NCBI GenBank assembly: GCA_003208875.1
Contig: QCUR01000003.1
Span: 1-64,000 of the forward strand
Direction: 5' to 3'
Length of the DNA: 64,000 nucleotides
DNA from: Prochlorococcus sp. AG-679-M23
GTDB lineage: Bacteria; Cyanobacteriota; Cyanobacteriia; PCC-6307; Cyanobiaceae
Shown piece by piece: positions 9,001-12,000 of the stretch; within the stretch, counting starts at the first letter, position 1, and each line of letters starts with the position of its first letter. The position numbers are program-made.

Positions 9001-12000
9001 AGTTCTCCTTTTTTTTTAGCCATAGAAAAAGCATTAAGCGATGAATTCAAAAGTAATCTTTTTTTCAAACTTCATCAATTACAAGTTGGATCATTTGGTC
9101 TTTCTACCATTGGAAGAGTTGCTCAAAATATTGATTTTGATAAAAAAGAATTTTTATCAACATTTGATACCACAATATTTGGGCTAACAACAATTCCAAT
9201 TCTTGGTTGGTTTAAGCTTCTTCCAACTTTTGGAGGAAGAGTAATAACACTTTCTGATGATTTAGCTTTAGAAGATAACTTACTTAAAATGAATTTGCAG
9301 AAAACTAAAGTTTCAAAAGTTGATGGACTTAATAAGATTCCATTGCTTAGCACGCTATTAATGGAAAGATGGTATCCAGTCAAAGAAGTCTGGGAGAAAT
9401 TACCATGGAACAAAGAATCCCCTTCTTGCGAGGTATCTGTAATCTATATAGATGACGAAATAAGAATAATGAAAGATATTTATGGTTCATTTTTTGTTTA
9501 TATCAGACCAACAATTTCTATATTAGACGCATACATTTAGAAAAATACAATTTTTAGAAAGTTGAAAATGATGGACTAAATGGCCCTCCTCCAAAACCAC
9601 TCATTCCTCCTGAACCATCAGGGAAGATTGTCATTCCTCTGCCTGTAATGCTGAAATTGACTTCCATACCTTTTGTTTGATTTGATACCACAACTGGAGT
9701 AGTGGGTTGAAAACTCCCAAATAAATGAGTTGAACTCCCACAAGAAGAATCTGCTGTATAAGTTCCTAAATTACCACCACTAACTTGTGCCAGTACTGCT
9801 TTCATAGTCCCAGTAACTCCTGTAGTAAAGACTTCTGCGCCAGCTAACTCTGGGCTTCCCGAACAAGTTTTTCCATTGCTGAAATCCATTAAGTCTTCAT
9901 CAAATTCACTATGAAGTGCTTCTGCTACAGGAGATCCATCACTGGAGGTGTAAAAAGTATTACTGTTGATTTGATAAGTACCTTTTAAACCAAAAGTATT
10001 CTCGATTTTGATATAAGCATGAGGATAAGTACCTGTCGGAGGCCTAAAGTTGGTTCCAGTTAAAGTTTGCGTAGCATTACCACCTAAATCAACTAAACTT
10101 CCCGTTGAGGATTGAAAAGTTGGAGTACAACTGGATTCAGATATTGTATTATCTGTCACTACATCATCATTACTATCAATAGAAGTTCCTGCAAGAGGAT
10201 CAGAAGTGCATAATCCCATTTCATAGACCTTTATTTTATAGGTTGAAGGAGTTATGTAACATGAATCATTAATACTTGATGGATTATCTCCAAAAAGAGA
10301 TTCACATGTGTTTGCATTAACCTTCTCATTGGAAGAAATAATAGAAGCTAATATACAGAAGCCAAAACTTGCTGATGCTTTTAATGAAGTGTTAGAGAAA
10401 AGTTTCATTTGAGATTAATATTAAAAAAAGGTTAGTGATGAAAAAAAGATTAGGAACCTTTAGCTCTGTTTACAAAGCTTCCTAAAGTTCGTTCTAAAAG
10501 AACATCATATTTACGTTTTACTGGTTGAGTCATTTGAGTAATCATGTTTTTCTTATATTCTCGCTTCCCGAACTTAACTGGATTAGAAGTTAGATTCATC
10601 CTTAGACCGAAGAAAGTTTCATCTGTTCCTGGAAGTGATGAATTTAAAGTGGTTGATGCAGATGATATCTCATTAGAAACCCAAGCTTCAAGACCTACAT
10701 GCGGAGTAGCTTGCCAACTAACGGCTCCTTCCAATCCAGAATTATCCTGTGTATATTTATAGTCCCAATTAAAACCTCTTACAAAAAAAGCAAGTTCAGG
10801 ATTATTTGGAAGTCTGTAGCCAAGTTCTACATCCCATCCATCAACTACTCTTTCCTTATATGATGTACCTTTTACAGTTACATCTTTTTCATCGGTAATT
10901 GCCATATACCAGTTGTTTCTTAATTCAAAATCTTTCCAAAGATATTCTCCTCCAAGACCAAGTCTGCTATGAGCATTACTATAGTTAGTCATTCTGTAGT
11001 CCCAGAAAGCATTAGCTCCAAGCATTGACACATCATTTGGACGATGTCTAATACCAAGACCTAAATTTGTAGTTGAACCATCTGCATTTGTAGCTGTAGC
11101 AAATCTTGCTTGAGAAAAAGCAAGAGTCTTAATATTACCCTCATCATCTTGAGCTAGTTCTCCTAGTTTCATCAAACTATTGACAGAGAAACTAGTATCT
11201 GATTCTGTTCCTCCAGAAATATTAACTGTTGTTTGAGCGAAGAAAGGAATACTTTTAATTGAGCTATTAGCTGTTGAATTTATGAAATCGAATCCAGCAT
11301 CAACTAATAACCTTTTACCATCATTGATCATTAAATTAGAATATTCACTACCTTCAGCACCCTCATTCATTAAAGGAACAAACTTAGTTGAATAACTTGC
11401 TCCATTTACTATATATTTATCTAATTTGTTTTTGGGAATATAAATATCTGAATTATTATTTTTGGACGGTTTATCTAGATTGTATAAATAGTTAGACTCA
11501 CTATCAAAATTTGGGGTTGAATAAGAAGAAGGAATAAATGTTCCTAAAAAGGAGGTTGATAAAAAAGCTAAGATTAATTTTGTTCTACTCAACATTAAAA
11601 AATTTTTAAAATTATTCCAGTTATAAAAGATTAAATTTGTTTTAATGCTGTTTATTACAAAATTCATAGAAATCTAGTTAAATTAAGTAGAACTACTTAG
11701 AGAAATATCACAAGATCCAAATAAATGAGTTATGTTCAGGATGAACATTTTAAAAATTATGCTTAAAAATAAAGAAAAAAATTCTGTAGTAAGAGGAATT
11801 TTTTTAATTGGAGGTTGGGGTTTAGGTTTAGATAGATTTTACGAAGGAGATAAAAAAGGTGGAGTCTTATCAATTATTGGATGGAGTATTACATTTTTTA
11901 CTTTCCTCTACCTGAAATGTTCTGGATATGAATATGTTGATGGTGTAAAAAATTATTCAGATTACTCCCCAAATCCTTTAATTGTTTTACCTTTGCTAGC

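What a model noticed while it worked through the whole genome (the two positions that open the first line are those of the whole stretch)
9554..11667. Split inverse autotransporter: passenger-less intimin-type barrel plus separately encoded variable partner
g00828 (C3:10450-11667, 405 aa) is an intimin/invasin-type (type Ve) beta-barrel that ends 18 residues after the barrel domain, with no passenger. The gene 41 bp downstream, g00827 (C3:9554-10408, 284 aa, own signal peptide, no family), is predicted to bind the barrel protein's conserved C-terminal tail (res 395-405, ...GSFxNRAKGS) by beta-strand addition to its own sheet. The pair is a conserved two-gene module with a conserved barrel and a fast-evolving partner: a two-piece version of an inverse autotransporter.
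Evidence so far: Pfam IAT_beta 217.8 bits, model 14-279/279 = res 108-387 of 405. Complex of barrel 95-405 with partner 33-284: ipSAE 0.76 (0.73-0.79; runs share >=93% of contacts; partner pLDDT >=79) vs best of 3 controls 0.00; the mark was reached by 116 of 157 solved complexes and 2 of 215 mismatched pairs; interface = barrel 395-405 with partner 97-123 and 243-255. In 5 other genomes of the genus 7 of 7 barrel genes are followed on the same strand within <300 bp by a g00827 homolog, three pairs in tandem in G054. Barrels 77-85% identical to g00828 while partners fall to 31-48%; partners keep a C-terminal FGGGPFxPxFxTF motif. Partner family in 20 of 81 genomes of the genus; IAT_beta in >=64 of 284 (relati [...]
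(Added by a program. Inside this text positions count along the whole contig: contig position 1 is position 1 of the stretch shown here. "Call 12" and the like, gene names such as g00115 and contig names such as C1 are that model's own, and its searches are not shown. The text may have been shortened before it was handed on; [...] marks where a part breaks off. The agent that wrote the report below was given it as the finding of a first reader that could run no searches.)

Follow-up and report, generated by a model that had tools for sequence, protein, structure and literature searches.

The report
Barrel-only intimin anchor with swappable partner
A marine cyanobacterium carries an intimin-type outer-membrane barrel that has no passenger of its own and is always followed by a gene for a secreted, highly variable protein predicted to clip onto the barrel's short tail; it is a stripped-down relative of a known two-gene secretion system, not a wholly new kind.

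Summary
Two same-strand ORFs 41 bp apart encode a 405-aa IAT_beta barrel (218 bits) that stops 18 residues after the domain, and a 284-aa signal-peptide protein with no family or fold match. The pair is a fixed module in marine picocyanobacteria: 28 of 29 distinct barrels in the genus sample, and 12 of 12 in six other genera, have the partner directly downstream. The barrel is near-invariant up to VLLER. The 11-24-residue tail and the partner vary together as one cassette between conserved flanks. Complex prediction again passes: ipSAE 0.80 against 0.00 for the controls, with the interface on the variable tail. Predicted interface positions of the partner are kept selectively among partners that share a tail. 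Binding is predicted, not shown, and surface exposure is inferred by homology to intimin. The idea is not new: ZirT/ZirS "two-partner inverse autotransporters" are in print. Partner diversity reflects old allele classes under purifying selection, not fast evolution. Verdict: a new, minimal variant of a known kind. The precise cassette boundary and an orphan cassette are the new elements.

The parts
10450..11667 (-). Barrel gene (405-aa ORF from the first ATG; probable true start is the ATG at 11595, giving 381 aa)
   Evidence: ORF. IAT_beta 218 bits. Relatives start at the equivalent signal peptide with GTG, TTG or ATG.
11518..11595 (-). Probable signal peptide of the barrel protein (residues 25-50 of the 405-aa ORF)
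   Evidence: Hydrophobic N-terminus conserved in relatives. The cleavage site is read from the sequence, not predicted by a tool.
10507..11346 (-). IAT_beta (PF11924) domain, residues 108-387
   Evidence: E 4.9e-65 in the six-frame genome search.
10489..10561 (-). Near-invariant linker end (…MITQMTQPVKRKYDVLLER). Its last strand, VLLER, is taken as the counterpart of intimin's strand at the extracellular opening.
   Evidence: Invariant columns. AF2 puts a helix at 347-353 and a strand at 367-370 in 381-aa numbering, at low confidence. The intimin strand L446-E447-Y448 with loops 4 and 5 is described in PMC13078405 (passages). The equivalence is inferred.
10453..10488 (-). Variable C-terminal tail (residues 394-405, TLGSFVNRAKGS), the predicted docking strand
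   Evidence: It is the only variable part of the barrel. It co-varies with the partner class. It forms the interface in the complex model. Nine RNA contigs in 3 runs lose likeness at 10492.
10409..10449 (-). 41-bp spacer between the two genes; no terminator-like site
   Evidence: sequence. One search found 0 terminator-like sites in 9300-12000. One RNA-run contig covers 10228-10467 (record 26).
9554..10408 (-). Partner gene (284 aa): signal peptide (residues 1-32) followed by an all-beta domain with four invariant cysteines
   Evidence: AF2 pLDDT 85.9, pTM 0.82. Invariant C50, C67 and C94 and near-invariant C35.
10034..10120 (-). Partner residues 97-125: strand end and loop that cover the tail in the model
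   Evidence: Interface list.
9644..9676 (-). Partner residues 245-255 (TKGMEVNFSIT, family motif TxGLExxFxVT): the edge strand that pairs with the tail
   Evidence: Lowest-error contacts. Motif conservation.
9557..9595 (-). Partner C-terminal motif FGGGPFSPSFSTF
   Evidence: near-invariant P276, F277, F281. Not universal: some classes end in …ASE or …ITE.
9516..11719 (.). Whole module as an insertion/deletion unit between two core genes (PAP_fibrillin 8782-9540 and a 113-aa membrane protein 11732-12073)
   Evidence: Homology to empty-site genomes ends at 9515 and resumes at 11720. Of 30 PAP_fibrillin loci, 19 have the empty site. One RNA-run contig joins 9515 to 11720.

Best explanation
This is a two-gene surface-display and secretion module of the type Ve (inverse autotransporter) kind, reduced to its minimum.

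Shown by sequence: the barrel protein has a signal peptide, the 12-strand IAT_beta barrel and the conserved linker, and it then stops after an 11-24-residue tail.

Inferred by homology to intimin: the linker threads the pore and its last strand (VLLER) sits at the extracellular opening. The tail would then be exposed on the cell surface, where intimin's first passenger domain begins.

The partner is exported by Sec. This rests on a signal peptide read from the sequence.

Inferred by analogy to ZirS/ZirT: the partner crosses the outer membrane in a barrel-dependent way.

Predicted, and supported by covariation: the partner is captured and held non-covalently when the tail adds as an edge beta-strand beside partner strand 245-255, under the loop at 97-125.

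Shown by comparison: tail and partner form one exchangeable cassette. Its upstream border lies exactly after VLLER, so old partner allele classes are shuffled onto a conserved anchor.

Inferred: the likely selective agent is whatever reads the cell surface, such as phages or grazers. The biochemical role of the partner itself is unknown.
For: Module. 28 of 29 distinct barrels in the genus loci have the partner -1 to 87 bp downstream. 12 of 12 strong barrel hits in six other genera have a partner-profile match next to them on the same strand.

Anchor. The barrel is invariant in most columns up to VLLER and variable only after it.

Cassette. In 7 syntenic loci nucleotide identity is mostly 0.8-0.98 in the flanks and 0.7-0.98 in the barrel (lowest bins 0.63-0.66 in two of the more distant loci). 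It falls over the barrel's last ~60 codons to about 0.4-0.55 across the partner. It recovers to 0.8-0.98 in PAP_fibrillin in the 4 loci that reach it with a single partner gene. Nine contigs in 3 metatranscriptome runs diverge at 10492, the VLLER codon boundary.

Covariation. Spearman correlation of tail against partner is 0.73. The partial Mantel given the barrel core is r=0.72, reached by 0 of 2000 permutations. Core against partner is 0.11.

Binding model. ipSAE is 0.80 (0.77-0.83) against 0.00 for the best of 3 controls. That mark was reached by 116 of 157 solved complexes and 2 of 215 mismatched pairs. The runs share >=95% of contacts and the partner pLDDT is >=88. The interface is barrel 394-405 plus 305-306 (405-aa numbering) with partner 57-64, 97-125 and 243-255. 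No similar solved complex exists to be remembered.

Interface-specific conservation. Among 765 partner pairs under 45% identical, identity at the 33 interface positions exceeds the rest by +0.108 when the tails match at 4 of 4 core positions (n=165). It is -0.074 to +0.019 when <=2 match (n=513). The difference of 0.111 was reached by 1 of 300 random position sets.

Charge pattern. NRAKG tails go with partner E249/R122. NRVGG tails go with K249 and D/E122 in 6 of 7. The one tail with E in place of R401 goes with the only partner that has R249.

Topology. Intimin's linker strand forms a sheet with loops 4 and 5 at the extracellular opening (PMC13078405 passages). The model's extra contact (305-306) falls in the loop after strand 9, counted.

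Precedent. ZirS secretion depends strictly on ZirT, also in E. coli K-12 (PMC2270342 section 10).

Expression. Contigs from RNA libraries of 4 studies cover both genes.
Against: Binding rests on one prediction method plus sequence statistics. Nothing here measures it.

Tail and partner are adjacent on the DNA, so their covariation could be linkage alone. Only addresses this, and its pairs are related, not independent.

The charge pattern has counter-examples: L072 (R tail with K249/K122) and L027 (K tail with K249/R122).

The barrel's own AF2 model is poor (pLDDT 51.5). The strand count and the loop-5 assignment are therefore weak, and the VLLER-to-intimin equivalence is by position only.

How a 25-kDa protein with four invariant cysteines would pass a 12-strand barrel is unexplained. 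That disulfide loops hinder type V secretion is recalled, not tested here.

Some partner genes lie away from any barrel: 2 of 3 in G103, 1 of 2 in G111, 1 of 4 in G021. G237 has a weak partner hit and no IAT_beta.

The RNA evidence is contigs only. It gives no strand, and DNA carry-over is possible.
Confidence: 0.5

Rival explanations
1. Secretion only. The barrel is a ZirT-like translocator and the partner is released into sea water or onto vesicles. The tail contact is a transient, class-specific recognition or folding-nucleation step, not a lasting anchor.
For: ZirS is found in the culture supernatant in a ZirT-dependent way (PMC2270342). Several modules carry two partner genes behind one barrel with one tail (G010, G104, G250, G198), which is easier if partners turn over. 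Orphan partner genes exist.
Against: The predicted interface is large and confident: 78-82 low-error contacts, with the strand buried under a loop. This looks like a stable fold completion. The tool says nothing about affinity.
Confidence: 0.2
2. Periplasmic complex. The tail stays in, or returns to, the periplasm, as in the alternative topology that Heinz et al. proposed for ZirT. The partner binds it there as a plug, chaperone or regulator of a channel, and is never exposed.
For: Heinz et al. 2016 (discussion passages) argue for a periplasmic C-terminal domain in two-partner inverse autotransporters. The partner's invariant cysteines fit an oxidising periplasm. No route across the outer membrane is known.
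Against: The linker, including the strand that sits at the extracellular opening in intimin, is the most conserved part of the protein. The model places the partner against a loop counted as extracellular. Deep allele classes swapped at a fixed locus, with presence/absence polymorphism, are what one expects of an exposed surface component. This last point is an inference.
Confidence: 0.15
3. No specific interaction. The barrel is a small porin-like or remnant outer-membrane protein, and the downstream gene is an unrelated secreted protein that merely shares an operon. The tail varies because it is unconstrained and linked to a variable gene.
For: Linkage alone can produce the tail-partner correlation. 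No experiment exists. The partner has no known fold or family.
Against: The pairing is kept across at least seven genera and at different chromosomal sites. The tail keeps a common pattern (aromatic-x-N/V/A-R-A/V-x-G) and is identical across partner subclasses that are only ~30% alike. Interface positions are kept selectively when tails match. The complex score is 0.80 against 0.00.
Confidence: 0.1
4. Fibre by strand exchange. The tail fills a groove in the first partner, and each partner's own C-terminal strand fills the groove of the next, building a short pilus-like polymer on the barrel.
For: In some classes the tail resembles the partner's own C-terminal strand (…FTVRVSA… against …MAVKVIPISA…; …WTARVKT… against …FDMSVIT…). 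The weak fold hits include Bacteroides type V pilins at Z 2.7-3.5. Some modules have tandem partner genes.
Against: The resemblance is slight in the commonest classes. In the monomer model the C-terminal strands are part of the partner's own fold at high confidence. The fold hits are at noise level. No homo-oligomer prediction was run.
Confidence: 0.05

Closest known systems
ZirT/ZirS(/ZirU) of Salmonella and the 'two-partner inverse-autotransporters' of Heinz et al. 2016 (SinH/SinI, IatB, Yfr4/Rat-like)
   Same: An IAT_beta barrel gene is followed on the same strand by one or more genes for Sec-exported proteins that lack a barrel. The module is self-contained. ZirS export needs ZirT (PMC2270342 section 10; PMC4943183 sections 11-12; PMC6714894 passages).
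   Different: ZirT, SinH and IatB keep a C-terminal passenger with Ig-like domains, and their partners resemble those domains. Here the barrel keeps only an 11-24-residue tail. The partner shows no Ig-like or any other known family or fold. Tail and partner are exchanged as an allelic cassette. The host is a free-living phototroph. That ZirS and ZirU bind ZirT's extracellular domain (Prehna 2012) is recalled and cited second-hand; that paper was not read.
Classical inverse autotransporters (intimin, invasin; type Ve)
   Same: Signal peptide, IAT_beta barrel and conserved linker, with the linker's end at the point where the passenger would begin.
   Different: There is no covalent passenger, no LysM domain and no Big domains. 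The would-be passenger is a separate polypeptide.
Two-partner secretion, type Vb (FhaC/FHA)
   Same: A transporter and its cargo are encoded as two adjacent genes, and the cargo is exported by Sec.
   Different: The transporter is not an Omp85/POTRA protein and the partner has no TPS domain. Recognition would be by a C-terminal strand of the barrel protein.
Donor-strand complementation in chaperone-usher and type V pili
   Same: Works alike: in the model, a strand supplied by another polypeptide adds to the partner's sheet.
   Different: There is no homology and no usher or chaperone. Fold similarity to pilins is at noise level (Z<=3.5).
Polymorphic C-terminal cassettes with orphan modules (CdiA-CT/CdiI, Rhs) - genetic architecture only; comparison recalled, not tested
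   Same: A conserved gene body, a sharp border at a short conserved motif (here VLLER), a variable C-terminal tip that travels with the downstream gene, and at least one orphan copy that keeps only the 3' end of the conserved gene.
   Different: The tip is a 12-residue strand, not a toxin, and the downstream gene is a secreted protein, not an immunity protein. Only 1 of 4 orphan partner genes examined has the barrel fragment.

Membership tests
Inverse autotransporter (type Ve) barrel, Pfam IAT_beta PF11924 | N-terminal signal peptide | tested here: met
   A hydrophobic N-terminus follows M25. Equivalent GTG, TTG or ATG starts are seen in 40+ relatives. It was read from the sequence; no predictor was run.
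Inverse autotransporter (type Ve) barrel, Pfam IAT_beta PF11924 | IAT_beta 12-strand barrel domain above the curated threshold | tested here: met
   218 bits against a cut-off of 22.3, model positions 14-279 of 279. A profile of the family hits the intimin and invasin barrels 4e1s and 4e1t (E 7e-7 and 9e-5).
Inverse autotransporter (type Ve) barrel, Pfam IAT_beta PF11924 | Linker that re-crosses the pore and ends in a strand at the extracellular opening | tested here: inconclusive
   The linker sequence is near-invariant. AF2 shows a helix and then a short strand, but at pLDDT ~50. The equivalence to intimin L446-Y448 is by position only.
Inverse autotransporter (type Ve) barrel, Pfam IAT_beta PF11924 | C-terminal covalently attached passenger (Ig-like/Big, lectin or beta-helix domains) | tested here: not met
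   The protein ends 18 residues after the Pfam domain. The same holds in all relatives examined.
Two-partner inverse autotransporters (ZirT/ZirS type) | IAT barrel gene followed on the same strand by gene(s) for signal-peptide proteins without a barrel | tested here: met
   28 of 29 barrels in the genus and 12 of 12 in other genera.
Two-partner inverse autotransporters (ZirT/ZirS type) | Partner resembles the Ig-like domains of the translocator's own passenger | tested here: not met
   The barrel has no passenger. The partner has no Pfam or NCBIfam match.
Two-partner inverse autotransporters (ZirT/ZirS type) | Partner has an Ig-like (IgSF) fold | tested here: inconclusive
   Fold searches found no clear match of any kind: best Z 4.2 and 0 Foldseek matches at E<=0.001. 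A weak or missing match does not exclude the fold.
Two-partner inverse autotransporters (ZirT/ZirS type) | Export of the partner depends on the barrel | not testable with these tools
   Needs a secretion or shaving assay with and without the barrel.
Two-partner inverse autotransporters (ZirT/ZirS type) | Physical contact between partner and the C-terminal part of the barrel protein | tested here: inconclusive
   Predicted only: ipSAE 0.80 against 0.00. Backed by interface-specific conservation.
Two-partner secretion, type Vb | Omp85-type TpsB with POTRA domains and a TpsA with a TPS domain | tested here: not met
   The only Pfam hit on the barrel is IAT_beta, and the partner has none.
Outer-membrane beta-barrel (for the partner, because of its C-terminal …F-x-T-F) | Closed barrel fold and a universal C-terminal aromatic residue | tested here: inconclusive
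   The C-terminal aromatic residue is not universal: several classes end in E or carry extensions. On the fold, no barrel appears among the matches (best Z 4.2). A missing match does not exclude a fold.

The most novel reading that the evidence does not exclude
A 'peg-and-socket' branch of type V secretion. A conserved outer-membrane barrel exposes a single beta-strand peg. A separately exported protein folds onto it by strand addition. The cell re-dresses its surface by swapping one compact cassette (peg plus partner) at a motif-defined border. Stored orphan cassettes carry the barrel's 3' end as the recombination handle. The strand would serve both as the specificity code and as the folding nucleus that pulls the partner out. 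This would be a programmable surface coat in the ocean's most abundant phototroph, shaped by phage or grazer pressure.
Probability: 0.3. Interest if true: 0.8.

Novelty: new variant of a known kind. Interest (0 to 1): 0.62.

Why it matters
Standard accounts of type V secretion treat only type Vb as having the two parts on separate chains (PMC6555100 passage). The ZirTS-type exception is little studied and its mechanism is disputed: is the C-terminal part outside or in the periplasm? (PMC4943183 discussion.)

This module is the simplest form yet seen: barrel, linker, one strand, and a partner of about 250 residues. It comes with natural series of matched and mismatched tails. That makes the open question of how an inverse-autotransporter barrel handles a separate protein directly testable by tail swaps.

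For marine microbiology, it identifies a widespread accessory surface locus of Prochlorococcus and marine Synechococcus-like genera. It was found in about a quarter of the genomes sampled in the genus. It has deep allelic classes, presence/absence polymorphism and transcripts in sea-water RNA libraries. It is therefore a candidate determinant of phage or grazer interactions.

Tried and rejected
- Fold of the partner. Foldseek against the PDB gave 0 matches at E<=0.001. VIA-align over 48,161 chains gave a best Z of 4.2, with generic beta-sandwiches, reovirus or adenovirus fibre heads and Bacteroides pilins all at Z<=4.2. No assignment was made.
- Protein atlas. The nearest clusters are unnamed. 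DUF4382 and DUF3060 appear only as weak leads at 0.91-0.93. Pfam at E<=1 did not support them.
- Fused forms. No protein of 567-2000 aa matched the partner profile (weak evidence by the tool's own note). Among the best 150 of 925 representatives, only P0156 (498 aa) is longer than 354 aa, and its extra part is N-terminal repeats, not a barrel.
- Phage origin. tblastn of the partner against 50,697 phage records found no match.
- Barrel structure. The AF2 model was too poor (pLDDT 51.5) to use for a fold search or a firm topology.
- Promoters and terminators. 12 promoter-like sites against 11.3 expected, and 0 terminators. Uninformative.
- Partner as an outer-membrane barrel because of its terminal Phe: set aside (see membership test).
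- Simple salt-bridge covariation R401-E249: not general. Replaced by the position-set test.
- Gene-wide positive selection on the partner: not seen (omega <=0.29). Many dS values exceed 1 and are saturated.
- Earlier findings of this scan: nothing on record for this place or sequence.
- Literature. The searches found no paper describing this cyanobacterial pair. PMC4365693 only lists intimin/invasin-domain barrels in 5 Prochlorales and 9 Synechococcus strains. Supplements of Heinz et al. 2016 (tables S6, S7), which might list cyanobacterial operons, were not opened.
- Parts of the stretch without RNA-contig cover (for example 11375-11682 in three of the runs) are not interpreted.
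Full report
**What is there.**
The window has about 25% G+C. Its genome is 1.65 Mb in 16 contigs. 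Close relatives of the partner are named only 'hypothetical protein [Prochlorococcus marinus]'.

On the minus strand lie two ORFs 41 bp apart: 10450-11667 (405 aa) and 9554-10408 (284 aa). The first matches Pfam IAT_beta over nearly the whole model (218 bits, residues 108-387, model 14-279/279). It ends 18 residues later. NCBIfam gives only partial, far sub-threshold hits to SinH-type inverse autotransporters. The real start is probably M25, which gives a normal signal peptide. More than 40 relatives start at that point with GTG, TTG or ATG.

The second protein has a Sec-type signal peptide and matches no family. Its predicted structure is confident (pLDDT 85.9, pTM 0.82) and all-beta, with no convincing solved look-alike. 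Foldseek found 0 matches at E<=0.001, and the best VIA-wide Z was 4.2 over 48,161 chains.

The flanking genes are on the other strand: PAP_fibrillin at 8782-9540 and a 113-aa membrane protein at 11732-12073. The pair therefore stands alone as a unit.

**How conserved the pair is.**
In a sample of 101 genomes of the genus, the partner was found in 28 and IAT_beta in 27, and 26 genomes have both. The three exceptions are two partners at contig starts and one partner of a divergent class.

Of 29 distinct barrel ORFs in the fetched loci, 28 have a same-strand ORF -1 to 87 bp downstream, and the other runs off its contig. Twenty-six of the 28 hit the window's partner directly. A divergent partner class joins the family by profile comparison (hhalign 99.3%, E 2.5e-20). 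The two unmatched ORFs align to that class at 26% identity. G021 has three pairs in tandem.

In a 201-genome sample of the order, all 12 strong barrel hits outside the genus (six genera) are followed by a partner-profile match on the same strand. Their barrels end in the same way: …Y(D/E)VLLER plus 11-24 residues.

In a 301-genome sample of the phylum, the partner profile was found only in this family. It matched 5 of 13 genomes there and 0 of 287 elsewhere among those searched. In the 1.84-billion-protein library, 925 cluster representatives match at E<=0.001. Nearly all are 260-320 aa and stand alone. No fused barrel-partner form was found, but the second search is weak evidence by its own note.

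**A cassette with a sharp border.**
The barrel alignment is invariant or nearly so in most columns up to VLLER and variable only after it. Over 28 pairs, barrel cores are 69-97% identical (mean 84%) and mature partners 19-94% (mean 31%).

Tail similarity tracks partner similarity: Spearman 0.73, and a partial Mantel given the core of r=0.72, reached by 0 of 2000 permutations. Core similarity does not track it (0.11).

Seven genomes carry the module at the same chromosomal site. There, nucleotide identity to the window is mostly 0.8-0.98 in the flanks and 0.7-0.98 in the barrel, with the lowest bins at 0.63-0.66 in two of the more distant loci. It decays over the barrel's last ~60 codons and is ~0.4-0.55 across the partner. 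It recovers to 0.8-0.98 in PAP_fibrillin in the 4 loci that reach that gene with a single partner gene.

Sea-water RNA libraries show the same border. Nine contigs in three runs match the barrel and lose likeness exactly at 10492, the E392/R393 codons.

Within allele classes both genes are under purifying selection. Omega is 0.00-0.14 for the barrel and 0.04-0.29 for the partner. Partner dS often exceeds barrel dS, though many dS values are saturated. The partner is therefore not 'fast-evolving'. Old allele classes are being moved onto a homogenised anchor.

**The module as an accessory unit.**
PAP_fibrillin is nearly universal in the genus (84 of 93 genomes). Of 30 loci around it, 4 hold the module. 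In 19 the membrane-protein gene lies 116-453 bp away, which is the empty site. In 7 that gene is not in the locus. The window's closest relatives by this gene have the empty site.

Homology to empty sites stops at 9515 and resumes at 11720. One RNA-library contig joins exactly these points. Other genomes carry the module elsewhere.

Some partner genes are orphans. Of four examined, one (G111, L136) is preceded by a 28-codon mini-ORF equal to the barrel's last residues, from MTQPV… through VLLER and a tail. This looks like a stored cassette.

**Do tail and partner touch?**
I repeated the complex prediction with deeper alignments (27 and 41 rows). The ipSAE was 0.80 (0.77, 0.80, 0.83), and the best of 3 controls was 0.00. 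That mark was reached by 116 of 157 solved complexes and 2 of 215 mismatched pairs. The runs share at least 95% of contacts, and the partner pLDDT is at least 88.

The interface is barrel residues 394-405, exactly the variable tail, plus 305-306. On the partner it is residues 57-64, 97-125 and 243-255. The tail lies as a strand beside the conserved motif TxGLExxFxVT. Nothing similar has been solved, so memory of a known complex is unlikely.

The tail and the partner gene are adjacent, so their covariation could be mere linkage. I therefore asked whether the predicted interface behaves differently from the rest of the partner. I took 765 pairs of partners under 45% identical. Identity at the 33 interface positions exceeds the rest by +0.108 when the two tails agree at all four core positions (165 pairs). 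It is -0.074 to +0.019 when they agree at two or fewer (513 pairs). The contrast of 0.111 was reached by 1 of 300 random sets of 33 positions. The pairs are related, so this is supportive, not a probability.

Charge patterns point the same way but are not clean. NRAKG tails go with E249/R122. NRVGG tails go with K249 and D/E122 in 6 of 7. The single tail with Glu in place of R401 goes with the single partner that has Arg at 249. L072 and L027 do not fit.

**Which side of the membrane?**
This step is inferred. In intimin the linker re-crosses the pore, and its last strand (L446-E447-Y448) forms a small sheet with loops 4 and 5 at the extracellular opening. Removing that strand abolishes the protein (PMC13078405, passages read).

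Here the most conserved stretch of the whole protein is the linker, ending in VLLER. The profile alignment to the intimin barrel covers only its middle. Extended colinearly, which is rough, it would place the end of this protein near the end of the crystallised intimin construct. The low-confidence AF2 model shows a helix and then a short strand at that place. The complex model adds a contact at residues 305-306, which by strand count lie in the loop after strand 9.

If the barrel folds like intimin, the tail starts where intimin's first passenger domain starts, on the outside. The barrel's N-terminal periplasmic region follows lineage and locus, not partner class. Class specificity therefore sits in the tail alone.

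**Comparison with what is known.**
The idea of a split inverse autotransporter is in print.
- ZirT is an intimin/invasin-type barrel, and ZirS is a Sec-dependent exoprotein whose secretion needs ZirT, also in E. coli K-12 (PMC2270342, abstract and section 10).
- Heinz et al. 2016 describe 'two-partner inverse-autotransporters' as a sub-family. They note barrel-only architectures and cyanobacterial groups, and they debate whether the C-terminal part is outside or periplasmic (PMC4943183, sections 10-12 and passages).
- Goh et al. 2019 make the same point for IatB/SinH (PMC6714894 passages).
- A 2015 survey lists intimin/invasin-domain barrels in 5 Prochlorales and 9 Synechococcus strains (PMC4365693 passages).
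- A 2019 review still states that only type Vb has separate chains (PMC6555100 passage).

My searches found no description of the cyanobacterial pair, its partner family, the tail docking or the cassette behaviour. I did not open the supplements of Heinz et al.

Against ZirT-type systems, this module differs in four ways. It has no passenger domain at all. Its partner is not detectably Ig-like. Specificity is reduced to one strand. Tail and partner form an allelic cassette.

**Verdict.**

My best reading is a minimal ZirTS-like display and secretion module with strand docking (confidence 0.5). The rivals are secretion with only transient docking (0.2), a periplasmic complex (0.15), no interaction (0.1) and a strand-exchange fibre (0.05). 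It is a new variant of a known kind.

Noticed in passing
L136:1406-1486 (G111:C1, about 1.0515 Mb), upstream of an orphan partner gene: A 28-codon mini-ORF equals the last residues of a barrel protein (from MTQPV… through VLLER plus a tail) and sits directly before a partner gene. It lies 43 kb from that genome's complete pair. It looks like a stored cassette. Three other orphan partner genes (L064, L138, L007) show no such fragment.
   Followed up: partly
window 9516-11719 against empty-site loci L105-L133: The whole module is present or absent between two core genes. The empty allele has about 119 other bases there and a different last ~8 codons of PAP_fibrillin. No flanking repeats were seen by eye, and none were searched for systematically.
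   Followed up: partly
P0156 (498 aa, from the representative library): A partner-family domain (residues 243-498) is preceded by about 240 residues of Gly/Ile/Asn-rich repeats (…GIINN…). Pfam does not recognise them. It may be a partner with an added N-terminal module, or a partial gene call.
   Followed up: partly
L098 (G163), L100 (G101) and weak IAT_beta hits in G263, G271, G187, G180, G221: Related genera also have long open frames (800-1379 aa) with a partial IAT_beta match (E 1e-6 to 1e-11). In L098 there is also a NosD/beta-helix-like stretch. These are probably classical inverse autotransporters with beta-helix passengers, as Heinz et al. noted for some diverse groups.
   Followed up: partly
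G010:C9:6852-8526, G104:C1:1189955-1191715, G250:C7:84542-86416, G198:C3:113032-115309: Some modules have two different partner genes in tandem behind one barrel. This recalls zirS and zirU behind zirT.
   Followed up: no
window 8510-8692 (+): A 60-aa ORF with a Nif11 domain (E 3e-8), the leader type of prochlorosin-like peptides. It is conserved next to PAP_fibrillin in most genomes looked at.
   Followed up: no
window 3941-4813 (+) and 5908-6450 (-): An Mrr-type restriction endonuclease domain protein (E 6e-22) and a second PAP_fibrillin paralogue (E 1e-15) lie a few kb from the module.
   Followed up: no
window 9500-11500: G+C is 32-38% in the two genes against 20-30% around them. Whether this reflects the Gly/Ser/Thr-rich proteins or foreign origin was not examined.
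   Followed up: no
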